Part shown: in pieces, positions 44,466 to 63,276 of the stretch
How positions within the stretch are numbered: the first letter of the stretch is position 1
Layout: each line of letters begins with the position of its first letter
Sequence record: MN850578.1
Length of the DNA: 64,000 nucleotides
Reading direction: 5' to 3' (one strand)
Source of the DNA: Escherichia phage nomo
The notes under the pieces: generated by a model
What the model was told of the DNA's origin: nothing
The model's database searches: none
What the model saw: the letters and a program-made list of their open reading frames with translations, nothing else
Made by a program: the position numbers and the translations under genes

Positions 44466-44585
44466 GATGAGCACTACACGCCAGCACACAAAGGTAACCA
44501 TCATCGTTTGCATCATTGGGTACATCCTGGCGCAAATGTTGATGGGTAGCGCCAACGGTGTCGCAAAATTTTTCTTAAACTTTTA
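44466..44585 (+). CDS. small hydrophobic peptide (39 aa)
   Basis: RBS aaaaggagg; MSTTRQHTKVTIIVCIIGYILAQMLMGSANGVAKFFLNF; single predicted TM helix. Confidence 0.4.
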
Positions 44586-44586
44586 A

Positions 44587-44614
44587 TTGACAAGCTAACT
44601 TAAATCGATATAAT
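44587..44614 (+). promoter_or_regulatory. sigma70-like promoter
   Basis: TTGACA, 16 bp, TATAAT. Confidence 0.6.
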
Positions 44615-44665
44615 AAGCACATAAACGGGAAAACTTCCCAGAACACACAAAAGGAGAAAAACACC

Positions 44666-45007
44666 ATGACTACTATGACCGCCTCAGAAAAAGCTATGCA
44701 GATCGCTGAACTGAAAAAACAGATCGCAGACCTTGAGAATAAGATCGATAACTTTGAAATCGACGAGGACAAGTACGACGAAAACTATGATGAATGGTTA
44801 GACGAGATCTACGGAGAAATTATGATCGGAAACATTTCTTTTCTTCCGTCGCGTATCCTCAAGGAGCTAGATCCTATCGCTTACCGCTGCGGATTTAGCG
44901 ACTACATCGACAGCCTGGATATTGAGGACGATGAAGAATACCAGGAATTACAGACAGAGTTAGAAGAAGCAAAAGAAGAGCTTGCGGAGCTGGAAGAAAA
45001 CGAGTAA
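44666..45007 (+). CDS. hypothetical acidic coiled-coil protein
   Basis: RBS aaaggag; 113 aa, Glu/Asp-rich. Confidence 0.55.
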   Translation: MTTMTASEKAMQIAELKKQIADLENKIDNFEIDEDKYDENYDEWLDEIYGEIMIGNISFLPSRILKELDPIAYRCGFSDYIDSLDIEDDEEYQELQTELEEAKEELAELEENE

Positions 45008-45009
45008 GC

Positions 45010-45054
45010 TTATTTTTAGATGGCCTTGACACCAGGGCCATCAATAAAGTAAAC
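45010..45054 (+). promoter_or_regulatory. repeated promoter/operator cassette, copy 2
   Basis: Identical core to copy 1. Confidence 0.55.
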
Positions 45055-45096
45055 TTTATACTGTTAACACTGAACTAATGCATAGGAGTTAAAACC

Positions 45097-45342
45097 ATGG
45101 CAGCACTAATCACCAAATATTATGCCCCTACCAACACCAAAAGCGCCCGTATCATGGTAAAAGGCTTCGGACGTAAAAAGGTGTACACCTGGGATTATGC
45201 CTTAGACACGGAAGACAACTACACCAACGCAATGACCGATTTTATTAATGAACTAAATAAGCAGATCTTGACAAGTTATAAAGTGACTGATATTGCTTAT
45301 ATAGGTGAAGGCGGGATCTGTTTTGTAGGCATTGTGAAATAG
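45097..45342 (+). CDS. hypothetical protein
   Basis: RBS aggag. Confidence 0.55.
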   Translation: MAALITKYYAPTNTKSARIMVKGFGRKKVYTWDYALDTEDNYTNAMTDFINELNKQILTSYKVTDIAYIGEGGICFVGIVK

Positions 45343-45416
45343 TTATTTTTTCGGTGGTCCTGGCTGCAGGGCCATCTATAAAGATAATTTATCAACACCA
45401 TGAAAGGAGAAAGTAC

Positions 45417-45770
45417 ATGATCAGCGGGGCTAGTTTTATTATTGGCGCTATTGCTACGGCTTTAATTGTAAACAAGATCCAATCTAAAAACGAAAAAGAT
45501 AGCAACGCGCTCACAGAATACCCATTTTGGGTATTCAACGACAACGAAGACTACATAATCAAGTACAAAGATGAGAGAGGCGACCAGGTAACACCGCGAC
45601 CGATCCCAGCTTACAAGATGCAGGAAACACTATACCGCCTAAAGGCCGGAGGCGCAAAGATCGTAGACTTTTGGGGATATGATTGCAAGGATCAGGAGGT
45701 CATAAAACGTCGTATCCGGGCGATTCAGGCAAATATTGAAATTAGTAAAGGGGAAATTTATGAAAATTAA
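45417..45770 (+). CDS. hypothetical membrane-anchored protein
   Basis: ATG after aaaggaga; N-terminal helix ISGASFIIGAIATALIV; preceded by a diverged cassette copy at about 45345-45395. Confidence 0.5.
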   Translation: MISGASFIIGAIATALIVNKIQSKNEKDSNALTEYPFWVFNDNEDYIIKYKDERGDQVTPRPIPAYKMQETLYRLKAGGAKIVDFWGYDCKDQEVIKRRIRAIQANIEISKGEIYEN

Positions 45771-45957
45771 TTTCGAAAAAATTGTAAAGCGCCCCCACGA
45801 TTCCGAAGAGCTGCCGGAACGCCGCCAGCGTAACAATAAACTGAATAAACCGAAAAGGTTCGGGAAGATCTGGAGGAATCACTATGATCGCAAATTACCG
45901 GGCCTGCTTTTGGAACGTGAACGACAGGCGGAACGATACCGCCACAAAGGCAAATAA
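45760..45957 (+). CDS. hypothetical basic protein
   Basis: ATG after aagggg, overlapping upstream stop; Arg/Lys-rich. Confidence 0.4.
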   Translation: MKINFEKIVKRPHDSEELPERRQRNNKLNKPKRFGKIWRNHYDRKLPGLLLERERQAERYRHKGK

Positions 45958-45965
45958 CAACCAAC

Positions 45966-45991
45966 GCCCCGCCATTGTGCGGGGCTTTTTA
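45966..45991 (+). terminator. rho-independent terminator
   Basis: gccccgc-cattgt-gcggggc then tttttattt. Confidence 0.7.
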
Positions 45992-46127
45992 TTTCTATCC
46001 TACGAATAGCGCCCCTGGTTGGCACCACAAACGCCACAAAAGCCCCTACCTATGCAATCCCCTTTCTTAGCCTGAAAACATCACCCAGGACCGTTTTATG
46101 GTGTTAAAAATATCTTTTATTTAAAGC

Positions 46128-46156
46128 TTGACACCTTGGAATCGCCTGGATATACT
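46128..46156 (+). promoter_or_regulatory. sigma70-like promoter
   Basis: TTGACA, 17 bp, TATACT. Confidence 0.6.
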
Positions 46157-46191
46157 AACCACATCAAAGCAAGAAGAAAGGAGTAAACGCC

Positions 46192-46452
46192 ATGCGTAAA
46201 TTAAAAAATTTTGATAAAGTCGATGTTGTCCTGAATAATTTTTACTACTGCAATAATAAGGCCGTTTGGTGGCGTGATAGTTCCACCGATAAAGTTAAAG
46301 CGCGCTTTCTCCAGGGGCACTGGCAAGGCCGCCCAGTGATTAAGATCCGGGGGCAATTGGTAGCGTTTAAAAATTGCCGCCGTGTTGATGACGTTGAAGA
46401 GATTCTAAACATTTTACGCCACAATAATTTAAAAAATAGTGTTGACAAGTAA
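46192..46452 (+). CDS. hypothetical protein
   Basis: RBS aaaggag. Confidence 0.55.
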   Translation: MRKLKNFDKVDVVLNNFYYCNNKAVWWRDSSTDKVKARFLQGHWQGRPVIKIRGQLVAFKNCRRVDDVEEILNILRHNNLKNSVDK

Positions 46453-46469
46453 GCCTCAATAAGTATACT
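46442..46469 (+). promoter_or_regulatory. sigma70-like promoter
   Basis: TTGACA, 16 bp, TATACT; followed by hairpin ggcgggaaaacttcccgcc (46480-46498). Confidence 0.55.
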
Positions 46470-46526
46470 TAAACACACAGGCGGGAAAACTTCCCGCCAC
46501 TAACAAAGAAAATAGGAGAAAATATC

Positions 46527-47150
46527 ATGACCACCGTTAACATTACCGCAGGTTACAATTTATCTTTCGACGTGCTGACCGACGAACAAAAAGAAAAAGC
46601 CGTTGAAATGGTCCGCGAAAGAGAAGAACACAGCGGGGATAACTTTTTTGCAGAAAGTGTAATTGAATACTATAAAGAATATGTTTTTCCAGAGTATGGC
46701 CTTGAAGATACCGAAGTACATTGGTCAGGCTTTTGGTGCCAGGGTGACGGCGCGTCAATCAGTGCTGAAAACGTGGATTTAGAAAAATTTTTGCGTAAAG
46801 TAAAGGCCCTGACCAAGTTCCGATCAATTCGTCACTTGTTCGGCACAATGCACGATGGCGAGTTATCAGCCAGTGTTGAGCGTGATCCATATAGCCGCTA
46901 TAGTCACGAAAACACTGTAAGCGGATACATTGATACCACCTGGCTAGATCTGACCGCCAAACAAGAAAACAAAGTGGAAGACTTGGAAGAGCTGATCACC
47001 GAGACGGTACGGGAGCTATCCCGCAAGGTTTACGTAGACCTGGAGGAGGCCTATCTTGAACAGTTTACTACCGAAAACCTGATCGGCCTTATTGAGGCCA
47101 ATGATTGGCGGTTTGATGTGGATGAATATGGCGAGATGACTTTTTCATAA
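46527..47150 (+). CDS. hypothetical protein
   Basis: RBS ataggaga; 207 aa. Confidence 0.55.
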   Translation: MTTVNITAGYNLSFDVLTDEQKEKAVEMVREREEHSGDNFFAESVIEYYKEYVFPEYGLEDTEVHWSGFWCQGDGASISAENVDLEKFLRKVKALTKFRSIRHLFGTMHDGELSASVERDPYSRYSHENTVSGYIDTTWLDLTAKQENKVEDLEELITETVRELSRKVYVDLEEAYLEQFTTENLIGLIEANDWRFDVDEYGEMTFS

Positions 47151-47158
47151 ATAAAGTG

Positions 47159-47186
47159 TTGCAATAACCTAAAAACCTGCTATATT
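47159..47186 (+). promoter_or_regulatory. sigma70-like promoter
   Basis: TTGCAA, 16 bp, TATATT; followed by hairpin ggggcaagacgtttgcccc. Confidence 0.5.
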
Positions 47187-47239
47187 AAAACTCAAGGGGG
47201 CAAGACGTTTGCCCCACACAAAACAAAGAGGAAAACATT

Positions 47240-47620
47240 ATGAAAAACACTACCAAGGCTATTGACACCGTTATGTTTAACCTGGTTACATTCCGTGAAG
47301 ATATGAAAGATCTTCCACGTGAAACAGTGTGCGATCACATTGAAAACTATCGCAAACTAATCAAAGAGTTGCCCCTAAAACGTGACCAGTATGCGGCTAA
47401 CGCTATGCTCAACGCCATGATCAAAAAGATGATCCAGTGTGATTTAACCCTGGCCTATGACTATGCGGGTGGTCGTTTTGCAGTATACAATCAGCCCGTG
47501 CCCGGTATGGGCACCACCGAAGAATTGCACGCGCTCAATCTAAAACAAGACGTATGGGATAACATGCCCCGCGTGGTGGTGTGGGCAGAAAGCGGAAAGA
47601 TTTACGGCGATAATTTTTAA
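47240..47620 (+). CDS. hypothetical protein
   Basis: RBS aaagagga. Confidence 0.55.
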   Translation: MKNTTKAIDTVMFNLVTFREDMKDLPRETVCDHIENYRKLIKELPLKRDQYAANAMLNAMIKKMIQCDLTLAYDYAGGRFAVYNQPVPGMGTTEELHALNLKQDVWDNMPRVVVWAESGKIYGDNF

Positions 47621-47630
47621 TCAGGTAACA

Positions 47631-47656
47631 GGCGGCATATTTGCCGCCTTATTGTT
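47631..47656 (+). terminator. rho-independent terminator
   Basis: ggcggc-atattt-gccgcc then ttattgtt. Confidence 0.6.
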
Positions 47657-47684
47657 AAACAGAACTGCAAAAGAGGTACATAGA

Positions 47685-48056
47685 ATGGAATTTATTATTT
47701 TGGCTGTAGTAGTTGCCTTGTTCAACGCCTGGATCGCTGGCAAGATGGGTAGATCCGCCTTTTTATGGTTTATTATATCTATTTTCCTGGGGGTGGTTGC
47801 AACTATTGTACTTGTTATCCTTGCAATTGTTGACAAGGGGAATAATAGAAAGGGTAAAGTATTTTCAGACCTGTACGACGCTCAAACGTTTGTCAACGCC
47901 TATTATAGTGATCTTCCAGTCTCCCTACGCTGCAGCCTGGCACAACAAGTTTTCGATGAGGCTAAAACCAGAGATCAAGCCCATGAGATATGTTTAACTG
48001 AGGCGGATCGCCTATTTGAGAGGAATAGAAAATATGTGGGCCAACCGTTTAAATAA
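47685..48056 (+). CDS. hypothetical membrane protein
   Basis: ATG after aaagaggt; two hydrophobic helices at N-terminus. Confidence 0.5.
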   Translation: MEFIILAVVVALFNAWIAGKMGRSAFLWFIISIFLGVVATIVLVILAIVDKGNNRKGKVFSDLYDAQTFVNAYYSDLPVSLRCSLAQQVFDEAKTRDQAHEICLTEADRLFERNRKYVGQPFK

Positions 48057-48275
48057 TGCCACGTTAATTAATCCCTTTAGTGAAGATTTGAAGCCAGCCG
48101 CCTGGCGTGATGGATTCAATAACGAACGCTTTATTTTCAAGCCTGATCTTGAGGAATTTTATAACAATGGATCGAACAACGACAGAGATAATTTTTCTTG
48201 TGGTGTGCGTAGTGATGGTACTCCTGGGGGCCATTGTAAACCACGTCGCTACTAACAGGGGGAAAGGGGGAGACG

Positions 48276-48395
48276 ATGACACCCAAGGATAAGCCCCGCA
48301 CCGATAAGGCGCGCCGTGTTATGGTATGGCTTGAGATCATCGCCCTTGAAATATTGTTAGGGGTAGGGATGTACTTTATCGCTGTAAGTAACTAA
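48276..48395 (+). CDS. small hydrophobic peptide (39 aa)
   Basis: ATG after gggggaga; MTPKDKPRTDKARRVMVWLEIIALEILLGVGMYFIAVSN; region 48016-48292 also holds overlapping alternative frames, unresolved. Confidence 0.35.
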   Translation: MTPKDKPRTDKARRVMVWLEIIALEILLGVGMYFIAVSN

Positions 48396-48399
48396 GAAC

Positions 48400-48427
48400 G
48401 GCCCCCCGATCATGGGGGCCTATCTTT
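48400..48427 (+). terminator. putative terminator followed by A14 tract
   Basis: ggccccc-cgatcat-gggggcc then tatcttt and 14 consecutive A (48428-48441). Confidence 0.4.
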
Positions 48428-48454
48428 AAAAAAAAAAAAAATTCTTCCGGGGTG

Positions 48455-48482
48455 TTGCAATCCGGTCCGGAATGTGGATAAT
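48455..48482 (+). promoter_or_regulatory. sigma70-like promoter
   Basis: TTGCAA, 16 bp, GATAAT; followed by hairpin ggggagacactcccc. Confidence 0.5.
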
Positions 48483-48541
48483 AACAATCAACGGGGAGAC
48501 ACTCCCCACCGCATAGACAAAGTTCCAAAAGGAGAAACAAA

Positions 48542-48742
48542 ATGAGCAACAATATCCGCGTTATTAACTTCAAAAAAGAAGAAAAAATTGCCGTGCTGAT
48601 TGACGGTCAAGAAATCTTTAAAGGTGATTATGAAGATCATCAAACGGCGATTAGTATCACTCGCGTGATTGGTTACCATAATTTTTACCCTCAAGGCGCT
48701 GAGGCAGCAGTAAAACGAATTAAAGAGATTGTAGGCCTGTAA
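48542..48742 (+). CDS. hypothetical protein
   Basis: RBS aaaaggag. Confidence 0.5.
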   Translation: MSNNIRVINFKKEEKIAVLIDGQEIFKGDYEDHQTAISITRVIGYHNFYPQGAEAAVKRIKEIVGL

Positions 48743-48744
48743 AA

Positions 48745-48790: not shown

Positions 48791-48833
48791 TTAAACCCTG
48801 TTAAAATAATCAGTGCAAAAAGGAGTAATGATC

Positions 48834-49133: not shown

Positions 49134-49150
49134 TTTCAGCAGGTGATTTT

Positions 49151-50754: not shown

Positions 50755-50782
50755 TTGACAATAATTTATTACTTGATAGACT
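50755..50782 (+). promoter_or_regulatory. sigma70-like promoter
   Basis: TTGACA, 16 bp, TAGACT. Confidence 0.5.
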
Positions 50783-50834: not shown

Positions 50835-50939
50835 ATGTTAGAGAAAATTTTCACGGTTGTAGTAGTTGGCCTGGCATTATCGGTTGGATGGGTTGCAACT
50901 ATGGCTAACATGATCCTATCTTCCCACGGTATCGGTTAA
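50835..50939 (+). CDS. small hydrophobic peptide (34 aa)
   Basis: ATG after gagggtag; MLEKIFTVVVVGLALSVGWVATMANMILSSHGIG. Confidence 0.4.
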   Translation: MLEKIFTVVVVGLALSVGWVATMANMILSSHGIG

Positions 50940-51541: not shown

Positions 51542-51690
51542 CCGTGAAAAAGATAATCATTACCTTGGGGATTGTGGCGGGATCGCTGGCGCTCTTTCCC
51601 CTTATGGTTAGATATGTGCTGATCAGTATTGTCCTGGTGGTCAGTGATCTACTAGAAACGGTTGGCACCTTGTTTTAAAGAGCGATAAAA

Positions 51691-52190: not shown

Positions 52191-52270
52191 ATAAAAGTGT
52201 TTTGGTACTGATTTTGGGGTTGACTTGTTCGGCCCCTTTTGCTATTCTTATTAAACGGGCGGCACTTGGG

Positions 52271-52299
52271 AACAGGGGGAGACAATCACCAGGCCTGCC
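52271..52299 (-). repeat. conserved motif, inverted copy
   Basis: Reverse complement reads ggcaggcctggtgattgtctccccctgtt, matching 42644-42677. Confidence 0.6.
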
Positions 52300-52324
52300 T
52301 GTCATATAAGAACTATAAAAACCG

Positions 52325-53050: not shown

Positions 53051-55500
53051 GTCTTCTCTTTTCCTACCATAAACGGCCCTACCTGGCAAGTGGAATAATT
53101 GACGAGCCATCAATCCCACACACTGTACAAATATACATGGAAAATAACTATTGCATAATTTTTCATTGTGTGGTAGCAAGGCCATTTTTACACGTTTTTC
53201 CTTCCAAAATTGCACGTAATGCAGCATTTGCACAAAATTTAACCTGATGCATATCTTCAATAGCTTGTCAACAACTAAAAATCTTTATAAGTCATACACT
53301 TACATAACTACAAAAACGTTTTCTACGTGAAAAATCGAGTATAACTATAGCCGCCAGATCTCAGAATTTACGTACGCTCGCCATTCTATAGCCTGCTAAG
53401 CATTTATTCCAACCATAGAATAACTGAATAGTCAATACCTGCATAAAATAATTATTCGTGTAAACTGCATAACATAAATCGGCCCAGGTGTCAACATTTT
53501 TCGTAAACAGTCTGGAATTGTCACGTTAGGTTACCATAAGTAGAGAAATCTTTAGTCGTCTAATGTTTACTGTACGTTACTATATTAACTGAAATCATTA
53601 GATGACTAATAGAAAGATAAGAAATAATTAACAATACAATTATTTTATCTGTAACAATAAGGCAACTATGCAAACGAATGGCATGGCGCGACGGAGTCGC
53701 GACATAATATAAAAGCAGTAACCATCACCCCCGTGATAGTTTGTCTGCAAACTATTAATCAGATCATAGTTGCCTTGTATTTAGTTAATCATGACATAAC
53801 AAGCAAGGCAACTATAGATCTGCTAATAGTTGCCCTGCTTTTATATTATGTCATGCTAATTATAATCAGTGCGATTATTGTCATGTATAATTATTGTCAT
53901 GCAAACGAATGGCATGGCTGATTATCGGTGTGTAAACAGTCAATCATGTAAATGGTTAGCATGTGAACAATCAGGAATGTAAACAATCCAGTGTGTAAAC
54001 TAATAGGTGTGTAAAAGTGTCATGTTGTGTCAGTTAGGTCACATTATGTCAGACAAGTTTTTCTCCTCTTTGTCAAGTGCTGCATGAAAAATTTACAAGC
54101 TTGTATGGTAGCATTTTTGCGGCCCTGTTTACATTCAGGAGTGTATGTATAATCCTTGTTGTGTGGGCGTTTAGACGTCTGGACGGTCAGAAGTCTGCAG
54201 GTCAATATCTAATCTATTGGCTGCTAACTATATCCCCCACAAATAATAAGAAATATAATTGTTATGTGCGTAAACAGTAACCCATGTTATCAATCCCTGT
54301 ATGTATCGCCAGTTGTGCGCATAATGGGTATTATGTTAAATTGCCCGTAATGATAACTATTCTCACAATGATAGGTATTCTCATTCACCCCCACAAGATA
54401 GGTTGCAAATGTTGTGCCACTGTGTGAACGGCCTCACCTATTAATTTGCCTCACTGCCTCGATATTTGAGAATTGTTATAAGAATGAGAAGTATTCCCAT
54501 TCCGTCCGCCTGGCAGCACTCCAGTCGCTACGGCTCCTGACAGGGCAGCACTCCTGTAGGTCAGGTCAAAATCGTGGTAGAACTGGACCTGTTCGGATAT
54601 TTCTGGCTGACTCTTCAGGTCTGTGTGGGAAAAGCCAACCCCTCCGGCGGGGCAGGGGATATCTGCAGGAAAATTGCAGGTCAATTAAAAATTTACGTGG
54701 TGTATGAAGCGCTCTTCAGGCAAGGCATGTATTAGAGGATGAAACCCTCTTCAGGCAATGATATTTGTGGGTGGGATATTTGCTGGAAAGCCAGATATGA
54801 CGGGACTCCCGGCGGGGCAGGGGTAGTACAGACAGGGAAAATATGAGGATGTAATTGGGGAAATTGATCAGACAGGTAGAGTATGGAATATGTTACAGGT
54901 ATGTTAAATATGGAGGTTGAATATCTGTAGGATTTGTGTGTAAAATCAAAGACTTAAGGGGTGTTGTGGTATTTTCTATAAATAATTCAAGTTTAATAGG
55001 CAATATTTGTCTCTATCCGCTTTGTGTGGTAAACAGATTCAGATGAAATTGGTTTACAAGTGTATACATAATATACAAATTAAAGATACAAGAAACCCCC
55101 CTCCCCCCTCGGCTACCATTCACCTTTTCCTCTGACTGGTACTTAAACACTTATTCAGACTCTTCAGGTTATCACCCATATATCATATGGCAGTGACTGG
55201 TGTCCTCCGGCCCCTCTTTCGTCACCCGTCCGCTTCGCCATGCTAATGCCATAGCCAATGGTTCGGTTGTTCACCCTGTTCACTCAGGTGTATCTCCATA
55301 CCCCTTCAAACCGAAGAGAACAGAAAACCCGAATTACTCGGTAAAAGAAAAGAGAAGAACTTAATTTTATCAGGATAGGCAAGAATGTCAAGGCATGACT
55401 GCTCACTAAACAAGCAAACAGTCATGTGTGGAAGGTAAGTGATTGTGGTGGTGGGAAATTTAGTTGAAAGATGTGTTATAGGTGCGCTTCCAGCACTTTA
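53051..55500. repeat. 2.4-kb non-coding, AT-rich, repeat-dense region between convergent gene blocks
   Basis: No ORF with RBS; contains palindrome ggcaactatagatctgctaatagttgcc (53797-53824), inverted ggcaactat copies, direct repeats gcaaacgaatggcatgg (53660, 53891), GTAAACAG-type repeats, about 75-bp imperfect direct repeats with ccggcggggcagggg (54643, 54799) and ctcttcagg (x4). Confidence 0.7.
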
Positions 55501-55857: not shown

Positions 55858-56274
55858 TCATAGTCTACCACCTCTGAACTCTTCGTGCTCAGGCATAATA
55901 GAGAACCAGATATCTACGATGTCTCCCCACGTCAGGTCATCAGCCTCAGGATCTATCTGGGACGAAGATGAAGAGTCATCAGAATCTAAGTTTTCCTCTT
56001 TCACTGGCTCAGCCAATGGACAACATATGGTCACTCCTTCAGATGTCTCTTCAGATGCATGCGTGTTGATCATGTTCCACCCGTGAGTATTCCGGCAACA
56101 GCCGCTATGGACGTAATGATCATCAGGATCACCACTAAAACTTCGGACAATGTTCTCATTGTGTATCCCATATTCTCCAAACGATGTGTGGATACTATCA
56201 CTGGAACGGTAATGTGTCAACAGAAACGCCGCGAGGGTTTGGTTAAAATCCGAGCGTATGGTGATTTGGGTCAA
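55858..56274 (-). CDS. hypothetical protein (doubtful start)
   Basis: 138-aa ORF, TTG start only, no SD. Confidence 0.3.
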   Translation of the reverse strand: MTQITIRSDFNQTLAAFLLTHYRSSDSIHTSFGEYGIHNENIVRSFSGDPDDHYVHSGCCRNTHGWNMINTHASEETSEGVTICCPLAEPVKEENLDSDDSSSSSQIDPEADDLTWGDIVDIWFSIMPEHEEFRGGRL

Positions 56275-57463: not shown

Positions 57464-57717
57464 TTAACGTTCTACAAAAATACCGTTCAGTTCAATAACC
57501 AGGAATTTCTGGTCTTCACTGTCGTCTCGTGCCAGCACCTCACAGACGTATCGGTCATCTCCATCATCATCGCAGTCAAATACAAGACTGAGGACTTTAT
57601 CATGATAAACCTTCGCCACTACCGCCTCGTAAGTATTGCCGATTGTGAATCCAAGATAATCTCCGATGCATTTGACAACAACATGGTCGCCAGCATTCAA
57701 GTCAATCTTCGTCATTA
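57464..57717 (-). CDS. hypothetical acidic protein
   Basis: Start moved to ATG (MTKIDLN..) after aaggag. Confidence 0.5.
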
Positions 57718-57842
57718 CTGCGCTCCTTGGGTAATAATACTGTATGTAAAACTTTAACCAGAGATGTGAATAACGCCCCAAAACACACCGATAGCGCTAA
57801 AACAGACAAGGCCATCATCAAAGCTTCAGTAAAATCAGTCAT
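57702..57842 (-). CDS. small hydrophobic protein (46 aa)
   Basis: ATG after gaggtgagga; MTDFTEALMMALSVLALSVCFGALFTSLVK..; not in track. Confidence 0.4.
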   Translation of the reverse strand: MTDFTEALMMALSVLALSVCFGALFTSLVKVLHTVLLPKERSNDED

Positions 57843-57861: not shown

Positions 57862-57890
57862 ACTATACTATCATTTATCCTTGCCGTCAA
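57862..57890 (-). promoter_or_regulatory. sigma70-like promoter (minus strand)
   Basis: Minus-strand TTGACG, 17 bp, TATAGT, upstream of 57842 peptide. Confidence 0.5.
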
Positions 57891-58134
57891 GAACTTTTTT
57901 AAATCTTTCAGGGATATCCCCCGTTCTTAGATAGTTCATGACCTCACAAGGTTCCCACTTGAATTTCTTACAGAGCAGGGCGGCTGAGATTGTTTCATTG
58001 CGAAAAGAAAGGATATTAATATCCCACTCTGAGAACCCCAACTTCCGAAGGGTAGCTACAGAAATCCTCACCGCAACCCAGCAGCAAAAACATGCAACAA
58101 ACGCCACTGCTACAACCCACATCAGGATGTTCAT
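57871..58134 (-). CDS. hypothetical membrane protein
   Basis: RBS aaggtg; N-terminal helix ILMWVVAVAFVACFCCWVAV. Confidence 0.5.
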   Translation of the reverse strand: MNILMWVVAVAFVACFCCWVAVRISVATLRKLGFSEWDINILSFRNETISAALLCKKFKWEPCEVMNYLRTGDIPERFKKVLDGKDK

Positions 58135-58143
58135 ATAAGCACC

Positions 58144-58227
58144 TTACTGAAATACAAGACACAGTGTTAAGGTTACTGACCAGCAAATAATTAACAGTGC
58201 CGTTGCAACCTTGGCAAGATTTATCAT
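58144..58227 (-). CDS. possible small hydrophobic peptide (27 aa)
   Basis: ATGA overlap with upstream stop; MINLAKVATALLIICWSVTLTLCLVFQ. Confidence 0.3.
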   Translation of the reverse strand: MINLAKVATALLIICWSVTLTLCLVFQ

Positions 58228-59190: not shown

Positions 59191-59451
59191 TTACAGCACC
59201 TCTTCGTCAACTACTTCATAAAAATGGCCTGGGATTGCAATAGCGTTCTCACCTTCACCTACAAACACAGTTCCGTCAAGAATCAACATCATAAGAATTT
59301 CTGTAATATCCTCTTCCGGAACGTTGCCAAAACCTTTAATCAGCTCGTAGGTTGGAATATTTACCTCTAAGATGTCACCATCTTTAGAACGGAAATCAAC
59401 ACCGTCCTGAATCTCTGCCTTTTCAAGGTTTTTCAATTTAATCTTCATCAA
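59191..59451 (-). CDS. hypothetical acidic protein (MK[IV]K paralog group)
   Basis: RBS caggaga; MMKIKLKNL.. Confidence 0.5.
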   Translation of the reverse strand: MMKIKLKNLEKAEIQDGVDFRSKDGDILEVNIPTYELIKGFGNVPEEDITEILMMLILDGTVFVGEGENAIAIPGHFYEVVDEEVL

Positions 59452-59480
59452 TCGGTCTCCTGTCTTGTTAAGATGAAGGT

Positions 59481-59509
59481 ATTATTTCACACAGGGTTGG
59501 CGTTGTCAA
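59481..59509 (-). promoter_or_regulatory. sigma70-like promoter (minus strand)
   Basis: Minus-strand TTGACA, 17 bp, AATAAT. Confidence 0.55.
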
Positions 59510-59527
59510 CACCTGTGTGCAAGAAAA

Positions 59528-59923
59528 TTACTGAAACAGTGCGGATAAATTACCTTCTGGTGGGAACTTATCTGCCAAAAACGGTGTTAGCACAGTAGCC
59601 TTCTGAAGATCTGGGGTCCACTCGTTGTTCAGAACATCCCAGTAGTACGCAATGTTGCTGTGTGGGTGCCGCATTACGAACTTTTTCCCTTCGTAGTCAT
59701 CTGAAACCTCTACAGAAGAAATAACAACAGAATCTTCAAGGGTTTCTTCATAGAAAGATCCGCCTTCAAATTTCCAACGAGATGCAAGAGCCCCTGCCTT
59801 GAACGCTGCAGATAACGGACTGTCGGCAAGAACATACATTTCTTGCACTCTGTCGCTGCGATCTTTGCTTCTTACGTTGTATACAGTATCTGAGCTATAC
59901 TCAACACGGTATAGGCTTACCAT
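59528..59923 (-). CDS. hypothetical protein (paralog of 61735 gene)
   Basis: RBS gaggagg; shares HP.S...YW.....WTP block with 61735-62133. Confidence 0.5.
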   Translation of the reverse strand: MVSLYRVEYSSDTVYNVRSKDRSDRVQEMYVLADSPLSAAFKAGALASRWKFEGGSFYEETLEDSVVISSVEVSDDYEGKKFVMRHPHSNIAYYWDVLNNEWTPDLQKATVLTPFLADKFPPEGNLSALFQ

Positions 59924-60255
59924 TACCGCACCTCCTCAATAACTTCCACATCTGAACCTACCACAAATGCAAAAGGACAGGTTTCATGAAAGACATCCGG
60001 ATCGCCGCCAAGCTTGCTAACAATCTCTCCACCACTAATAAACACAAGCTCACCGATATTCATCAGATTGCTGAAATAGTACCCATAATGATTAAAGAAT
60101 GCAGCAGGGTCAGGTAGATTAGTAGCCTCAAGCACTACATCGGTTGAGGTTACTTTCTTATCATAACCTCTCGCCTTTTGAGATGCAAGATCTGCAGAAT
60201 CCTCAGGCGACCGGAGATGCACAGGAATTGTTTCACCAATAAAGCGTACTTTCAT
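59923..60255 (-). CDS. hypothetical protein
   Basis: Start moved to ATG (MKVRFIGE..) after gggtga. Confidence 0.45.
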   Translation of the reverse strand: MKVRFIGETIPVHLRSPEDSADLASQKARGYDKKVTSTDVVLEATNLPDPAAFFNHYGYYFSNLMNIGELVFISGGEIVSKLGGDPDVFHETCPFAFVVGSDVEVIEEVR

Positions 60256-60259
60256 ATTA

Positions 60260-60523
60260 TCACCCAACAACCATAGCTTCAAAAGGAGTCATGAACGAAT
60301 AAACGGCATCATCATCTGCTTCAGGGAATGCTCCCAAAGACTTCATATCTGAGCCCTTGACAAATACAAGGTTTTGATCAAAGGCTTCTTGGGGGTCAAT
60401 CCGATACATATTTCGTAAAATATCGCTTACCTCCTCATCAAGAGGTGAGTATGCTGTGCACGTTTTTCCGATCAAGCTTTGAGAATCAGGGTATCCACCT
60501 GAAGTTTTAAAATAAACAATCAT
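60260..60523 (-). CDS. hypothetical protein
   Basis: RBS agaggtg. Confidence 0.5.
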   Translation of the reverse strand: MIVYFKTSGGYPDSQSLIGKTCTAYSPLDEEVSDILRNMYRIDPQEAFDQNLVFVKGSDMKSLGAFPEADDDAVYSFMTPFEAMVVG

Positions 60524-60569
60524 ATAGTATCACCTCTGGTAAGAGATTGGGACTCCTTTCCCACAAATA

Positions 60570-60597
60570 ATTACAAATCTTCCTTAGCGAGGAAGTA
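60570..60597 (-). terminator. putative minus-strand terminator
   Basis: Hairpin cttcctcgctaaggaag followed by T/A-rich run on minus strand. Confidence 0.35.
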
Positions 60598-60614
60598 TGC
60601 TAATCCAAGCAGGA

Positions 60615-60884
60615 TTATTCCTCTACAATCTCATACACATCAGGAGTTACAATCAACTCTTCTCCGTTACCCGGTGCAACAAACACCACCAAACCTTCAG
60701 GTGTGTGCTTTTTAGCCATCTCGATAACATCTTCTCGCAGAGCTGGCTCCATCAGATCAAAACCTTCACCTAGGGCATCACGAACCACCTTCATATAGTC
60801 CACTGGTTGTGCTTCAACAATCATGCCTTCAACCAGTCCACAGTTTTTGTCTGCCAGCTCAGTTTTGAATAATTTAATTTTCAT
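60615..60884 (-). CDS. hypothetical acidic protein (MK[IV]K paralog group)
   Basis: RBS gaggag; MKIKLFKTEL.. Confidence 0.5.
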   Translation of the reverse strand: MKIKLFKTELADKNCGLVEGMIVEAQPVDYMKVVRDALGEGFDLMEPALREDVIEMAKKHTPEGLVVFVAPGNGEELIVTPDVYEIVEE

Positions 60885-60910
60885 TTAGAGGTCTCCTCAA
60901 TTATTTGATA

Positions 60911-61012
60911 TTAATAGCCGTAACCTAACACATTAACTACAACTGCGATTGCAAACATAATTTCAAAGCATGCAATCTCTACATTTGGGACTAATTTCTT
61001 AATCACACCCAT
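60911..61012 (-). CDS. possible small hydrophobic peptide (33 aa)
   Basis: ATG after gaggtg; MGVIKKLVPNVEIACFEIMFAIAVVVNVLGYGY. Confidence 0.35.
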   Translation of the reverse strand: MGVIKKLVPNVEIACFEIMFAIAVVVNVLGYGY

Positions 61013-61021
61013 TGTAGCACC

Positions 61022-61342
61022 TCATTCTCCAAAGTCAATCTTTACTTTGCCTTTCCCCTTACCTTTCTTTCCACCGCATTTAGCCAGCTGACGTGCTGCG
61101 ACATCTACCATACGGTCAGTTGCCTCGTAAGCATCACTGACTTTAGCCTTGGCAATAACTTCTTTTCCAGAATTGTCAAAAATGAACGCCATAACTTCCT
61201 GGTGATCATTTTCAACTTTTACACTCACACGTGCATAGTTAACAGAGGGATGTAAACGCTCCAGCTTGGACATTTTGCGGGAAATAAAAGATACCATACC
61301 TTCTGTGATTTCTACATTGTTGCCAGTGATTTCAATTTGCAT
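61022..61342 (-). CDS. hpf: ribosome hibernation promoting factor (HPF/RaiA family) homolog
   Basis: N-terminus MQIEITGNNVEITEGM.. parallels E. coli HPF MQLNITGNNVEITEAL; conserved ARQL block; Lys/Gly-rich tail; RBS aaaggaa. Confidence 0.75.
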   Translation of the reverse strand: MQIEITGNNVEITEGMVSFISRKMSKLERLHPSVNYARVSVKVENDHQEVMAFIFDNSGKEVIAKAKVSDAYEATDRMVDVAARQLAKCGGKKGKGKGKVKIDFGE

Positions 61343-61426
61343 AACGTGTTCCTTTTAAGGAAGAGGGAATAACTATCTCTCTTTGAAAACAATGATACTA
61401 AATCTGAAGCGTTGTGTCAACAGTTT

Positions 61427-61717
61427 TTACAGCTTGTTGTCGATAGTTTTTAAAATATCCACAGCAAGATCTGCCATTTTTCGAACATACTCTGCAAACT
61501 CAACAGGATCCTTGATCAAAGAATTCACAGGGTCGTACCCTAGAGCGTTTAAAATGGCTGCAGCATCTACAACCTTCTCATCATTTGCGAAGATCTCTCC
61601 GTCAAACTTGTAGGTCCATTTTGAGTCAACCTTAGCAGAGCAGGGTTTGTCCATGCTTGTTACACCATCGTCTTTAAACTCTCCTGCGTTATCAATATTT
61701 AGAATTAAATCCATCAT
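61427..61717 (-). CDS. hypothetical protein
   Basis: RBS gaggtg. Confidence 0.5.
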   Translation of the reverse strand: MMDLILNIDNAGEFKDDGVTSMDKPCSAKVDSKWTYKFDGEIFANDEKVVDAAAILNALGYDPVNSLIKDPVEFAEYVRKMADLAVDILKTIDNKL

Positions 61718-61734
61718 GGTGACACCTCACTGTT

Positions 61735-62133
61735 TCAGTCTAGCTTTTCTTCAACAACCCCATAACTTGGGGCAGAGTCAAGAGCTTTCTGGTTTAAAAG
61801 TGGCGTAGCAGAATCTGCAAACGGTGTCCAAGTTTTTGTTCTGGCATTCCAGTAATGCTTCACTCTGGAATCTGGATGCACTATAACAAAAACTTTTTCA
61901 CTTGTCAACACATTAATTTCTTCTACACCCTTGCTGATAATTTCTCCGTCGTAGCCCCCAGTCTGGTATCCTTCGTACCAGGTTCTTGCATAGGCATAGC
62001 CAGCCTGCCAGCATGCAGCCTCCTCCGAGGTGGAGACTACGTAGAAGTCTTTCTCAAATTCCGGAATACGCCCTTGCTTTACGCTCCAAGCTCCGCGAAT
62101 TTTCATTGTTACTTTGAAAAGCTTGTTCTTCAT
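61735..62133 (-). CDS. hypothetical protein (paralog of 59528 gene)
   Basis: VIVHPDSRVKHYWNARTKTWTP aligns with FVMRHPHSNIAYYWDVLNNEWTP. Confidence 0.5.
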   Translation of the reverse strand: MKNKLFKVTMKIRGAWSVKQGRIPEFEKDFYVVSTSEEAACWQAGYAYARTWYEGYQTGGYDGEIISKGVEEINVLTSEKVFVIVHPDSRVKHYWNARTKTWTPFADSATPLLNQKALDSAPSYGVVEEKLD

Positions 62134-62134
62134 A

Positions 62135-62389
62135 CTACCGCTCTACAATCTCTACGTCTGTTCCTACACCGAAGGCATAGTAATGTTCTTCCCCAAAGTA
62201 ATACTTGGGGACACCCGCTTTGATCAGATCTAACCCGCGAATAAATACCACACCGTGTGATACAGTGGAATGCTTCTGACGCACAGGATCGTTGTCAGGC
62301 AACCATTCAAAGTACACCGCAGGTACAACCTTTCCCTTCAGGAAGGATTGTCCCAAGTAGACGTTAGAATCAAGAATTTTAACCTTCAT
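62135..62389 (-). CDS. hypothetical protein (MKVK.LDS paralog pair)
   Basis: MKVKILDSNVYLGQ.. similar to next gene MMKVKVLDSSFYIGQ..; both end ..DVEIVE. Confidence 0.5.
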   Translation of the reverse strand: MKVKILDSNVYLGQSFLKGKVVPAVYFEWLPDNDPVRQKHSTVSHGVVFIRGLDLIKAGVPKYYFGEEHYYAFGVGTDVEIVER

Positions 62390-62606
62390 TCTCGTCCTCC
62401 ACTATCTCTACATCCTCACCAAGGGCAAAGTTGTAGGTCCACTGGCTGTCAAAGCAGTCCTGAGATGCACCAGCGGCAATAAGATCTGCACCTTTTATTT
62501 TTAAAAGGTCAGGATAATCTTCGTTAGGGATAGCGGTAAACACTTTCCCCACTAAGGGCTCCTGACCAATATAGAAGCTTGAATCTAAAACTTTAACTTT
62601 CATCAA
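62379..62606 (-). CDS. hypothetical protein (MKVK.LDS paralog pair)
   Basis: See 62135-62389. Confidence 0.5.
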   Translation of the reverse strand: MMKVKVLDSSFYIGQEPLVGKVFTAIPNEDYPDLLKIKGADLIAAGASQDCFDSQWTYNFALGEDVEIVEDENEG

Positions 62607-62890
62607 CGGTCTCCCTCAGGCGGTTGTGGGACGTAAACACTGTTACGAATATCGTCAGCAGTGTAGTAATAAGTGGTTCCAACCCTATCTCGGGCTGCAA
62701 TGTACTCTGCTATACCAACAAGTGCCATTGATTTGGTGGCGTATCTTCCCCACTCGTTAGCTCCCCAGTAGAATTTAGACCAGTAGGGAATAAGACCGAA
62801 CAAATATACCTTTTGACGAACTTCCCAGTAAGTGCCTTTTCCGACAAGTTTAAACTCTACTTCACTACTGTTAATCTTTTTCATTATCAA
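62603..62890 (-). CDS. hypothetical protein
   Basis: Overlap-coupled ORF. Confidence 0.5.
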   Translation of the reverse strand: MIMKKINSSEVEFKLVGKGTYWEVRQKVYLFGLIPYWSKFYWGANEWGRYATKSMALVGIAEYIAARDRVGTTYYYTADDIRNSVYVPQPPEGDR

Positions 62891-63183
62891 TCTCCCTCTA
62901 CCGTGGTCGGATTGTCAGTAAGAAATTGAGCATTGGCTGGAGGCACGCCTGACATTTTCCACACAACCATAAGTTTATAACCAGGCACTCTATTAAGTGC
63001 AGATCGAGTAGAGTTTGTGCACGTATACTTTCGCTTTCCAAACCCGTTCTCCATCATAATCCAGTACCCAGTATCTTTGTCACCAGGTATCGGTAGACCA
63101 CCTTCATCAACCCACTGAATTGACCACGGCACGATGGCTACAGCTTTATATTTAAACTTTTTAAACCACTCAAAAAGTTTCAT
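62887..63183 (-). CDS. hypothetical protein
   Basis: Overlap-coupled ORF. Confidence 0.5.
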   Translation of the reverse strand: MKLFEWFKKFKYKAVAIVPWSIQWVDEGGLPIPGDKDTGYWIMMENGFGKRKYTCTNSTRSALNRVPGYKLMVVWKMSGVPPANAQFLTDNPTTVEGD

Positions 63184-63186
63184 AAT

Positions 63187-63276
63187 TCAGCCCCGCATAG
63201 ACATAATCACTATAAACAGGCAAACAATGAATCCGAATGCCACGCCACCCATAAACGTTAATATTGATGCAATCAT
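63187..63276 (-). CDS. possible small hydrophobic peptide (29 aa)
   Basis: MIASILTFMGGVAFGFIVCLFIVIMSMRG; gagg 11 nt upstream. Confidence 0.3.
   Translation of the reverse strand: MIASILTFMGGVAFGFIVCLFIVIMSMRG

What the first reader, a model, noticed from the sequence alone, without database searches (positions are those of the whole stretch)
44466..63276. Multiple unannotated 27-46 aa hydrophobic peptides with good translation signals
Below the 60-aa track threshold I find single-helix peptides with SD motifs at 44466-44585, 48276-48395, 50835-50939 and 57702-57842, and weaker candidates at 58144-58227, 60911-61012 and 63187-63276, some ATGA-coupled to neighbours. Small membrane peptides in phages include holins, antiholins, superinfection-exclusion factors and inhibitors of host membrane proteins, and would be missed by standard annotation.
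Basis: partly seen in the sequence, partly recalled or inferred. Interest (0 to 1): 0.5.

Follow-up and report, generated by a model that had tools for sequence, protein, structure and literature searches.

The report
Tiny membrane-peptide genes in rV5-like phage
The seven short hydrophobic reading frames are real, conserved genes for one-helix membrane peptides of an rV5-like E. coli phage, but six are already in public annotations with no known function, and only one 27-codon gene looks like a genuinely overlooked gene.

Summary
The window is an rV5-like coliphage (Vequintavirus; 96% identical to phage nimi). All seven ORFs exist. The first is mis-set by one base and is really 44467-44586. 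Each has an ATG, a Shine-Dalgarno site as strong as those of accepted neighbouring genes, and one strongly hydrophobic helix. Each fills a gap between genes on the coding strand. Chance does not explain them: shuffled sequence gives 0.05 such ORFs per window, against 9 observed. In relatives every copy is intact. Synonymous changes are enriched only in the proposed frame (p from 1e-5 to 2e-4 for six; 0.09 for c6).

"Unannotated" is mostly wrong. Five are rV5 gp193, gp181, gp173, gp156 and gp145, listed as "membrane protein, 1 TMD" in 2013, and each has its own PHROG. The 29-aa ORF is annotated in BASEL phages. Only the 27-aa ORF at 58144-58227 is absent from a 15-billion-protein collection. 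It was unannotated in all 60 sampled records of 117 phage records that hold its DNA.

No peptide matches a known functional family. The most likely role is early-expressed single-pass inner-membrane peptides acting through helix-helix contacts, not holins. The 29-aa peptide also heads unannotated arrays of tiny membrane ORFs in E. coli prophages.

The parts
44467..44586 (+). c1: 39-aa single-TM peptide, MSTTRQHTKVTIIVCIIGYILAQMLMGSANGVAKFFLNF. It equals rV5 gp193 and phrog_16391.
   Evidence: The ORF and its AAGGAGG SD (-11.6 kcal/mol) are. PHROG match E=1.8e-31. Syn/nonsyn 20/23, p=1.8e-4, no stop-creating variants. Annotated in nimi, A51.2, JeffSchatz and rV5. Listed as membrane protein with 1 TMD.
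44405..44434 (+). Sigma-70-like promoter (TTGACA-18-TAAACT) just upstream of c1. A perfect-consensus promoter follows c1 at 44587-44614.
   Evidence: rV5 annotates promoter P192 at the equivalent downstream site. This is a consensus match only.
48276..48395 (+). c2: 39-aa peptide with a basic N-tail and a TM helix carrying two Glu, MTPKDKPRTDKARRVMVWLEIIALEILLGVGMYFIAVSN. It equals rV5 gp181 and phrog_13629. It is followed by the hairpin at 48400-48420.
   Evidence: SD -10.7. PHROG E=7e-32. Syn/nonsyn 17/11, p=1e-5, with an in-frame 3-nt indel in relatives. Residues 17-39 are invariant and all substitutions fall in residues 1-16. AF2 gives helix 3-38, pLDDT 87.5.
50835..50939 (+). c3: 34-aa single-TM peptide with the conserved C-terminal motif ATMANMILSSxGIG. 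It equals rV5 gp173 (annotated longer) and phrog_14631.
   Evidence: It is exactly 34 aa in 12 loci, including phi92, BME3, phAPEC8 and a 120-kb IMG/VR contig, at about 50% aa identity for the most divergent. Syn/nonsyn 40/52, p=8.5e-5. A promoter-like site lies at 50755-50782.
51544..51678 (+). It starts with GTG here and with ATG in relatives. It equals rV5 gp170, 'membrane protein'.
   Evidence: (9 unique variants, all intact, syn/nonsyn 37/46, p=4e-4).
56070..56171 (-). Extra, weaker ORF: a 33-aa hydrophobic ORF, MGYTMRTLSEVLVVILMIITSIAAVAGILTGGT. It is annotated in BASEL phages. It overlaps a longer alternative ORF at 55858-56274.
   Evidence: cluster 7; syn/nonsyn 25/39, p=0.016; the C-terminus differs in 2 of 8 variants.
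57702..57842 (-). c4: 46-aa peptide with an acidic N-tail, one TM helix and a charged C-tail. It equals rV5 gp156 and phrog_16755. Its 3' end overlaps the next gene by 14 nt.
   Evidence: E=3.6e-36. Syn/nonsyn 19/15, p=2.5e-5, with 11 unique variants all intact. The start alternates between ATG and GTG among relatives. AF2 gives helix 2-36, pLDDT 84. A promoter-like site lies at 57890-57862.
58144..58227 (-). c5: 27-aa single-TM peptide, MINLAKVATALLIICWSVTLTLCLVFQ. Its start overlaps the stop of the upstream 95-aa gene (ATGA). It is the only candidate with no public annotation.
   Evidence: It is not in the 15-billion-protein collection and has no PHROG. Its DNA is in 117 phage records, and none of the 60 sampled records has a feature under it. 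There are 13 unique DNA variants in 19 loci, all intact 27-codon ORFs. Syn/nonsyn 16/11, p=1.3e-4, and the other frames are not significant. A divergent relative keeps a 26-aa hydrophobic ORF at the same place with a TGATG overlap.
60911..61012 (-). c6: 33-aa single-TM peptide lying between the phage HPF/RaiA-like gene and an 89-aa gene. It equals rV5 gp145 and phrog_15151.
   Evidence: E=3.7e-26; the neighbour is Ribosomal_S30AE. Eight unique variants are all intact, and the TM core 11-31 changes only once (V24I). Syn/nonsyn 6/9, p=0.09, so selection evidence is weak on its own. The exact peptide is seen on 753 contigs.
63187..63276 (-). c7: 29-aa single-TM peptide with a conserved GGxxxG motif, MIASILTFMGGVAFGFIVCLFIVIMSMRG. 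It is a 90-nt cassette inserted between two genes, 2 nt after the upstream stop and 3 nt before the downstream start.
   Evidence: Annotated in JeffSchatz and MiataMamis. Absent from the divergent relative, where the flanking genes overlap as TAATG. The SD plus ORF are 77-88% identical to DNA in 10 E. coli chromosomes, in prophages. Twelve unique variants are all intact. Syn/nonsyn 21/22, p=1.8e-4.

Best explanation
The seven ORFs are real, translated genes of an rV5-like (Vequintavirus) coliphage. Each encodes a 27-46-residue peptide that is essentially one transmembrane helix with very short tails.

They sit inside two converging blocks of small genes driven by sigma-70-type promoters. Each is translated from its own Shine-Dalgarno site, in several cases coupled to the neighbouring gene by overlap or a gap of 2-9 nt.

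What follows is inferred, not shown. After synthesis the peptides insert into the host inner membrane. They act early in infection through helix-helix contacts with host or phage membrane proteins, as modulators, inhibitors or exclusion factors. They do not act as holins.

Five of them are the published rV5 membrane proteins gp193, gp181, gp173, gp156 and gp145. One (c7) is annotated in newer genomes and is a mobile mini-gene shared with temperate E. coli phages. One (c5, 58144-58227) is a conserved gene that annotation pipelines have missed.
For: Phage identity is given.

The ORFs are not chance. Nine hydrophobic SD-bearing ORFs were found against 0.05 expected from shuffles. They fall only in coding-strand gaps.

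Coding-frame selection was counted as distinct synonymous/nonsynonymous variants in the proposed frame:
- c1 20/23, p=1.8e-4
- c2 17/11, p=1e-5
- c3 40/52, p=8.5e-5
- c4 19/15, p=2.5e-5
- c5 16/11, p=1.3e-4
- c6 6/9, p=0.09
- c7 21/22, p=1.8e-4
The other frames are not significant, and no stop-creating variant occurs in the proposed frame. Accepted neighbouring genes behave the same way.

Start codons are kept through ATG/GTG swaps in c4 and c5. Length is kept at 50% aa identity for c3 and at about 40% for c5.

Helix evidence: KD maxima of 2.35-2.71, and AF2 helices 2-36 and 3-38 with pLDDT 84-88.

The TM cores of c2, c4 and c6 are almost invariant while their tails vary. The GGxxxG motif of c7 is invariant from phage to prophages. 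Both patterns fit specific helix packing.

Sigma-70-type promoters are spread through the region. rV5 Table S3 calls five of them membrane proteins.
Against: There is no direct evidence of translation, membrane insertion or any phenotype. The rV5 mass spectrometry was done on virions only.

c6 alone is not significant on the syn/nonsyn test (p=0.09). Variant counts are not phylogenetically corrected, and most relatives are 90-100% identical.

'Early' timing rests only on promoter consensus matches. No homology links any peptide to a protein of known function, so the mechanism is an analogy.

Prophage homologs of c7 lie next to lysis cassettes, so a lysis-related role is not excluded for that one.
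Confidence: 0.8

Rival explanations
1. Some of the peptides are lysis-timing components (holins, antiholins, pinholin-like peptides or accessory lysis factors). They would accumulate in the inner membrane and trigger or delay permeabilisation.
For: They are small hydrophobic membrane peptides. c4 has a charged C-tail. In five E. coli prophages the c7 homolog lies 0.9 kb downstream of a holin-lysozyme-Rz cassette and just before the terminase genes. A 123-aa membrane protein two genes upstream of c2 is labelled 'putative holin' in BASEL records.
Against: No holin model in Pfam or NCBIfam matches. The best is a 12.9-bit sub-threshold hit for the extra ORF x8. In rV5 the lysin is gp89 and the proposed holin is gp129, both outside this region. 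The peptides are scattered among genes with sigma-70-type promoters. At 27-46 aa with one TM helix, they are shorter than characterised holins (own knowledge).
Confidence: 0.1
2. They are membrane-damaging toxic peptides, comparable to type I toxins such as TisB, Hok, Ldr, Ibs or DinQ. The phage would use them to depolarise the host and shut down its metabolism.
For: Their size (27-46 aa) and extreme hydrophobicity are in the range of type I toxins (own knowledge). c5 and c7 have almost no polar tails.
Against: No toxin family matches in Pfam or NCBIfam. No Rfam antitoxin sRNA or any other RNA family is found in the window. The genes are embedded in operons and translationally coupled, not free-standing loci with antisense RNAs. 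The invariant polar or small residues inside the helices (two Glu in c2 and c6; GGxxxG in c7) suggest specific partners rather than generic membrane damage.
Confidence: 0.08
3. The ORFs are chance open frames, or the stretches are conserved for non-coding reasons such as promoters, terminators or spacers, and no functional peptide is made.
For: T-rich intergenic DNA readily gives hydrophobic ORFs, a point made in PMC11188072. Promoter-like hexamers overlap the starts of c6 and c7. c6 is not significant on its own.
Against: Shuffles give 0.05 such ORFs against 9 observed. Synonymous enrichment is specific to the proposed frame in six of seven. There is not one stop or frameshift in 6-13 unique variants per ORF. 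ORF length is kept where the DNA has diverged to about 50% aa identity. The c7 segment shared with prophages is exactly the SD plus the ORF.
Confidence: 0.03

Closest known systems
rV5 gp193, gp181, gp173, gp156 and gp145 (and gp170): 'membrane protein, 1 TMD' in Kropinski et al. 2013 (PMC3606486, Table S3); PHROGs 16391, 13629, 14631, 16755, 15151
   Same: c1, c2, c3, c4 and c6 are the same genes. They match at 92-100% aa identity (c3 at 53% to the rV5 allele), in the same position and with full-length PHROG matches.
   Different: Nothing essential differs. c3 is annotated 12 codons longer in rV5. c5 and c7 are not in the rV5 annotation. No function has been assigned to any of them.
Bacterial small single-pass membrane regulators (E. 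coli AcrZ, MgrB, MgtS, CydX, KdpF, PmrR)
   Same: Same size class and the same architecture: one TM helix with minimal tails. Conservation is concentrated in the helix. This is a proposed way of working, by binding a larger membrane protein (own knowledge; general context in PMC11188072).
   Different: There is no sequence similarity to any curated model. No partner is known. These are phage-encoded and sit in early-type operons.
Type I toxin peptides (TisB, Hok, Ldr, Ibs, ShoB, DinQ, ZorO)
   Same: They are 19-50 aa, highly hydrophobic and target the inner membrane.
   Different: There is no antisense RNA locus and no family match. The genes are embedded in operons with translational coupling.
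Phage holins and antiholins (lambda S105/S107, P21 S68/S71, T4 T/RI) and exclusion proteins (T4 Imm, Sp)
   Same: They are phage-encoded inner-membrane proteins. Prophage homologs of c7 are next to lysis cassettes.
   Different: Those proteins are larger (about 57-218 aa), often have 2-3 TM helices or sizeable soluble domains, and holins are expressed late (own knowledge). No model matches here. The rV5 lysis genes lie elsewhere.
Arrays of 20-36-aa TM mini-ORFs between the lysis cassette and terminase in mEp021-group (mEpimmI) temperate coliphages and prophages
   Same: c7 is 69-86% identical in protein to the first member of each array (77-88% at DNA level). It has the same 29-aa length, the same GGxxxG motif and the same SD-stop junction.
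   Different: In the window c7 is a single cassette in an early-type operon of a virulent myovirus, not part of an array. The arrays themselves are undescribed in the paper I could read (PMC11893012) and largely unannotated in RefSeq.

Membership tests
rV5-type small membrane proteins (PHROGs 16391, 13629, 14631, 16755, 15151) | Full-length, significant match to the family profile | tested here: met
   c1, c2, c3, c4 and c6 match over the whole profile length, with E from 1.8e-31 to 3.9e-22. c5 has no family. c7 has only a weak hit to phrog_6302 (E=0.004).
rV5-type small membrane proteins (PHROGs 16391, 13629, 14631, 16755, 15151) | Same genomic position as the rV5 gene | tested here: met
   The order of flanking genes is identical in rV5, nimi, A51.2, JeffSchatz, MiataMamis, FV3 and NHEP1.
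Holins / antiholins | Match to a curated holin model | tested here: not met
   Pfam and NCBIfam give no hit for c1-c7. Only the extra ORF x8 has a sub-threshold 12.9-bit hit to holin_phiLC3, whose cut-off is 39.7.
Holins / antiholins | Location in a lysis cassette next to the endolysin or spanin genes | tested here: not met
   The rV5 lysin gp89 (71.5 kb) and putative holin gp129 (94 kb) lie outside this region. The exception is that c7 homologs in prophages lie 0.9 kb downstream of holin-lysozyme-Rz, so the test is inconclusive for c7 alone.
Holins / antiholins | Late expression and lethal membrane permeabilisation at a set time | not testable with these tools
   This needs transcript timing and expression experiments. 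Sigma-70-type promoter matches in the region hint at early expression.
Type I toxin-antitoxin peptides | Match to a toxin family (Hok, Ldr, Ibs, TisB, ShoB, DinQ, Fst ...) | tested here: not met
   No hit in Pfam or NCBIfam at E<=1.
Type I toxin-antitoxin peptides | Free-standing locus with a cis or trans antisense RNA antitoxin | tested here: not met
   All seven are embedded in same-strand operons with gaps of -14 to +80 nt to their neighbours. There is no Rfam family in the window. Unknown antisense RNAs cannot be excluded.
Known bacterial small membrane regulators (AcrZ, MgrB, MgtS, CydX, KdpF ...) | Sequence match to the curated family | tested here: not met
   No hit in NCBIfam or Pfam and no PDB relatives for c2 or c4.
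Known bacterial small membrane regulators (AcrZ, MgrB, MgtS, CydX, KdpF ...) | Binding to a defined larger membrane protein | not testable with these tools
   This needs pull-down, two-hybrid or multimer modelling.
Anti-phage defence or superinfection-exclusion components | Match to a PADLOC model or to the T4 Imm or Sp families | tested here: not met
   No PADLOC hit and no Pfam hit.

The most novel reading that the evidence does not exclude
c7 belongs to a mobile class of self-contained mini-genes. Each is an SD plus a 20-36-codon single-TM ORF, and its own last codons carry the SD for the next gene.

Temperate mEp021-group coliphages stack these in arrays of 8-11 between the lysis cassette and the terminase genes. 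Virulent myoviruses can capture them singly by recombination at the repeated SD-stop junction (GCGAGGCTGATT / GCGGGGCTGAATT around c7).

If so, these arrays are an undescribed, diversifying repertoire of phage micro-membrane proteins. Together with the never-annotated c5, which sits beside two other membrane proteins (the 87-aa gene and c4), this would mean phage genomes systematically hide functional genes below the 90-nt calling limit.
Probability: 0.25. Interest if true: 0.55.

Novelty: new member of a known kind. Interest (0 to 1): 0.3.

Why it matters
Most of the finding matters little. Five peptides have been in the literature since 2013 as membrane proteins of unknown function, and a sixth is annotated in recent genomes.

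Three points have some value:
- The comparative evidence here turns 'hypothetical' calls into well-supported genes. It also shows where selection acts, namely on the helices of c2, c4, c6 and c7. That makes them reasonable targets for partner searches in the genetically tractable BASEL Vequintavirus phages.
- c5 is a concrete example of a conserved phage gene that no pipeline calls. At 84 nt it is below the usual 90-nt minimum.
- c7 links a virulent myovirus to unannotated arrays of tiny membrane ORFs in common gut E. coli prophages. This is a cheap lead for anyone studying phage microproteins.

Tried and rejected
I used the exact look-up instead.
- There are no tRNA genes in the window and no Rfam family. 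An RNA-gene explanation for the gaps was therefore dropped.
- IMG/VR and metagenome scans anchored on neighbouring proteins gave few loci (3, 5, 1 and 5). Only one truly divergent genome turned up (IMGVR_UViG_3300010279_000001). tblastn of the 87-aa neighbour found only Vequintavirus at 90% identity or more. The c4, c5, c6 and c1 families are therefore genus-restricted, and their divergence is limited.
- A concatenated query of c1-c6 plus the two extra ORFs found nothing in 5,426 complete E. coli genomes. Only c7 has chromosomal relatives.
- Pfam, NCBIfam, PADLOC and PDB gave no meaningful hits.
- The hydrophobic antisense ORF at 38317-38469 lies opposite the GC-skew-inferred coding strand of that region (its gene content was not examined). 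It was set aside as probably spurious, without testing.
- ORFs inside the 2.8-kb ORF-free region lack SD sites and were not pursued.
- The rV5 mass-spectrometry table covers virion proteins only and says nothing about these peptides.

Full report
**What the window is.** The 20 kb around the finding is 94-96% identical to many rV5-like E. coli myoviruses (Vequintavirus). The best match is phage nimi, with 100% coverage at 95.9% identity. The region consists of two blocks of small genes. One is on the + strand (about 43.5-53.0 kb) and one on the - strand (about 55.9-64 kb). They converge on a 2.8-kb stretch without accepted ORFs. [quoted passage not shown]

**Check of the observation.** Six coordinate pairs are exact ATG-to-stop ORFs. 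The first, 44466-44585, is out of frame. The real ORF is 44467-44586.

I call the ORFs:
- c1: 44467-44586 +
- c2: 48276-48395 +
- c3: 50835-50939 +
- c4: 57702-57842 -
- c5: 58144-58227 -
- c6: 60911-61012 -
- c7: 63187-63276 -

Each has a 17-residue Kyte-Doolittle maximum of 2.35-2.71 and an SD duplex energy of -5.8 to -11.6 kcal/mol. The 47 accepted genes of the region have a median of -7.4 (interquartile range -8.7 to -5.9). Only 15% of all ATGs reach -5.8.

A rough sum of the Hessa scale (values from memory) over the best 19 residues gives -2.5 to +2.1 for c1-c7, and -3.6 and -0.4 for the two extra ORFs. AlphaFold2 gives one continuous helix for c4 (residues 2-36, pLDDT 84) and for c2 (3-38, pLDDT 87.5).

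**Chance baseline.** In the whole 64-kb window, both strands, there are 251 ATG ORFs of 25-50 aa. Thirteen reach KD>=2.3 and nine also have an SD. Those nine are the seven candidates, 56070-56171 (-), and an antisense ORF at 38317-38469. Block-wise shuffles give 1.75 hydrophobic ORFs and 0.05 with an SD.

Of the 32 coding-strand gaps longer than 45 nt, only eight contain a hydrophobic ORF with a credible start: c1-c7 and 51544-51678. One further gap holds a TTG-start ORF (52202-52309) with no SD, which I regard as spurious.

The ORFs nearly fill their gaps:
- c5 overlaps the upstream stop as ATGA and ends 9 nt before the next start.
- c7 starts 2 nt after the upstream stop and ends 3 nt before the next start.
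- c6 has gaps of 9 and 26 nt.
- c4 overlaps the next gene by 14 nt.

**Are they coding?** I collected 36 related loci. They came from GenBank phages, IMG/VR, metagenomes and E. coli genomes. I counted each distinct variant (column plus allele) once, as synonymous or nonsynonymous, in every frame.

In the proposed frame the counts are:
- c1 20/23, p=1.8e-4
- c2 17/11, p=1e-5
- c3 40/52, p=8.5e-5 (with homologs from other genera)
- c4 19/15, p=2.5e-5
- c5 16/11, p=1.3e-4
- c6 6/9, p=0.09
- c7 21/22, p=1.8e-4

No variant creates a stop in the proposed frame. The other frames are not significant and do collect stops. Accepted neighbouring genes give the same pattern. Every homolog is an intact ORF, with 6-13 unique DNA variants per ORF.

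Start codons switch between ATG and GTG in c4 and c5 but are never lost. The only indel seen in a candidate is an in-frame 3 nt in c2.

Where the DNA has diverged strongly, the frame and length survive. c3 is exactly 34 aa in 12 loci, down to 50% aa identity, with the motif ATMANMILSS kept. c5 is replaced at the same place in IMGVR_UViG_3300010279_000001 by a 26-aa hydrophobic ORF, MNMSKVVTAALVITIISTVLLCVFGH. That ORF again overlaps the upstream stop, as TGATG.

These counts are not corrected for phylogeny and most relatives are close, so the p-values are approximate. c6 rests mainly on intactness, its PHROG and its near-invariant helix.

**Is it unannotated?** Mostly not.
- Phage nimi annotates c1, c2, c3 and c6.
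- A51.2 labels the same four 'putative membrane protein'.
- JeffSchatz (Bas55) and MiataMamis annotate c1-c4, c6 and c7.
- The founding genome rV5 annotates ORF193, 181, 173, 156 and 145. Its Table S3 lists them, plus gp170, as 'membrane protein, 1 TMD'.
- Five have their own full-length PHROG families of unknown function.
- The exact sequences of c1-c4, c6 and c7 are in NCBI/UniRef. The c6 peptide is seen on 753 contigs.

c5 is the exception. It is absent from the 15-billion-protein collection and has no PHROG. Its interior DNA occurs in 117 phage records, and none of the 60 sampled records has a feature under it. The densely called NHEP1 and MiataMamis records also skip it.

At 84 nt including the stop, c5 lies below the 90-nt minimum of common gene callers (my own knowledge of Prodigal and PHANOTATE defaults). 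That explains the omission. c3 is likewise unannotated in the phi92, phAPEC8 and BME3 records.

**Context.** Strong sigma-70-type promoter matches are spread through both blocks on the coding strand:
- 44405-44434, before c1.
- A perfect consensus at 44587-44614, right after c1.
- 50755-50782, before c3.
- 57890-57862, before c4.

rV5's authors annotated promoters at equivalent places. A GC-rich hairpin at 48400-48420 follows c2. This suggests host-RNA-polymerase-driven early expression, but it is a consensus argument only.

The rV5 lysin (gp89) and putative holin (gp129) lie outside the region.

c5, the 87-aa protein with an N-terminal hydrophobic segment (57871-58134) and c4 are three consecutive membrane proteins. 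c2 follows a 126-aa and a 123-aa membrane protein. c6 sits directly after the phage HPF/RaiA homolog.

**Where selection acts.** In c2 all substitutions fall in residues 1-16. Residues 17-39 (VWLEIIALEILLGVGMYFIAVSN, with two Glu) are invariant, although 17 synonymous changes occur across the ORF. In c4 residues 1-33 change at only three positions. In c6 the core VEIACFEIMFAIAVVVNVLGY changes once. In c7 the residues G10, G11 and G15 are invariant from the phage to the prophages. This is what one expects of helices that pack against a specific partner. It is the main reason I prefer a modulator or binding role to generic membrane damage.

**c7 is a mobile mini-gene.** The divergent relative lacks c7. 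There the flanking genes overlap as TAATG. The c7 SD plus ORF, and nothing else, is 77-88% identical to DNA in 10 of 5,426 complete E. coli chromosomes.

All five examined copies lie in prophages with the same gene order: holin (HP1 family), lysozyme, Rz, a 180-aa protein with an HECAH motif, the c7-like ORF, further tiny ORFs, terminase small and large subunits, Acb1.

The c7-like ORF is always 29 aa. It is followed by 8-11 consecutive 20-36-aa single-TM ORFs. Eight families are recognisable across the five prophages. Pooled synonymous/nonsynonymous counts are 90/56 (p=2e-23). One family has 10 synonymous and 0 nonsynonymous variants.

RefSeq leaves the stretch empty in strain M1/5. Parts of the array occur in the isolated temperate phages mEp010, mEp554, mEp044, mEp013, mEp021, mEp515 and MagusPhagus. 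The paper on that group does not mention transmembrane or small ORFs (PMC11893012).

In both the phage and the prophages the cassette is bounded by near-identical SD-stop junctions (GCGAGGCTGATT... / GCGGGGCTGAATT...). This suggests acquisition by recombination at these junctions, which is an inference. The other candidates have no E. coli chromosomal counterpart.

**c3 is also mobile.** c3 and its neighbours are 83-97% identical to segments of Phapecoctavirus and Justusliebigvirus genomes, which belong to another subfamily.

**Comparison with known families.** No peptide matches Pfam, NCBIfam, PADLOC or PDB sequences. There is no Rfam family in the window. They are therefore members only of their own PHROG families of unknown function.

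They resemble bacterial small membrane regulators (AcrZ, MgrB, MgtS, CydX, KdpF) and type I toxins in size and shape. They are members of neither group. They fail the holin tests that could be run: no model match, and no adjacency to the lysin. The prophage context of c7 is the one open point.

**Verdict.** The interpretation 'small membrane peptides' is right. The claim of being unannotated is wrong for six of seven, and no function can be assigned.

The best-supported reading is early-expressed, operon-embedded, single-pass inner-membrane peptides acting through helix-helix contacts. I put about 0.9 on their being real genes for membrane peptides and roughly 0.35 on that mechanism.

What is new is limited to c5 as an overlooked conserved gene, and to the link between c7 and the unannotated mini-ORF arrays in mEp021-group prophages.

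Noticed in passing
L025:3012-3751 (E. coli M1/5 prophage); also L024:6012-6963, L026:3012-3768, L027:3006-3917, L028:3012-3851: Between the lysis cassette (holin, lysozyme, Rz, then a 180-aa HECAH-motif protein) and the terminase small subunit, these mEp021-group prophages carry 8-11 consecutive 20-36-aa single-TM ORFs, tightly packed. Eight families show purifying selection (pooled 90 synonymous / 56 nonsynonymous, p=2e-23). RefSeq annotates almost none of them. The first member is the homolog of window c7.
   Followed up: partly
window:53007-55857: A stretch of about 2.8 kb has no accepted ORF, at the point where the + and - gene blocks converge. rV5's authors noted the same gap. It has no tRNA and no Rfam hit. 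It holds several short direct and inverted repeats (for example GTGTGTAAAC-type and ATAGTTGCC-type motifs, and an 18-nt perfect inverted repeat at 53701-53718 / 53835-53852). It could be an origin or another non-coding element.
   Followed up: partly
One is a 44-aa ORF with a GTG start here and ATG in relatives (rV5 gp170, 'membrane protein'; syn/nonsyn 37/46, p=4e-4). The other is a 33-aa ORF annotated in BASEL phages (p=0.016; its C-terminus differs in 2 of 8 variants). The second overlaps a longer alternative ORF at 55858-56274 that some records annotate instead.
   Followed up: partly
window:50572-51870: This segment, which includes c3, is 83-97% identical to segments of Phapecoctavirus and Justusliebigvirus genomes (phAPEC8, phi92, BME3 and others), which belong to another subfamily. 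This points to recent exchange of a small-gene cassette between myovirus groups.
   Followed up: partly
window:57702-58227: c5, the 87-aa protein with an N-terminal hydrophobic segment (57871-58134) and c4 are three adjacent membrane proteins. The trio is kept in all Vequintavirus genomes examined and in the divergent IMG/VR relative. They may form one complex.
   Followed up: no
window:44405-44434, with further copies seen in relatives as L001:1529-1556 and L001:5260-5285: A 26-30-nt promoter-containing motif (GGCCTTGACACCAGGGCC...TAAACT) recurs several times in the + strand block. It looks like a family of related early promoters.
   Followed up: no
GenBank records MG0656xx (for example MG065653, MG065646, MG065659): About 20 unannotated records named 'Campylobacter phage', with host C. 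jejuni, are 94-96% identical to this E. coli rV5-like phage over the whole 20 kb. The host label looks doubtful.
   Followed up: no
L004:14843-15113 (rV5 ORF153/ORF154): In the rV5 record the gene upstream of c5 is split into two overlapping short ORFs (70 and 44 aa). The window and other relatives have a single 95-aa gene there. This is a frameshift or a sequencing error in the founding record.
   Followed up: no
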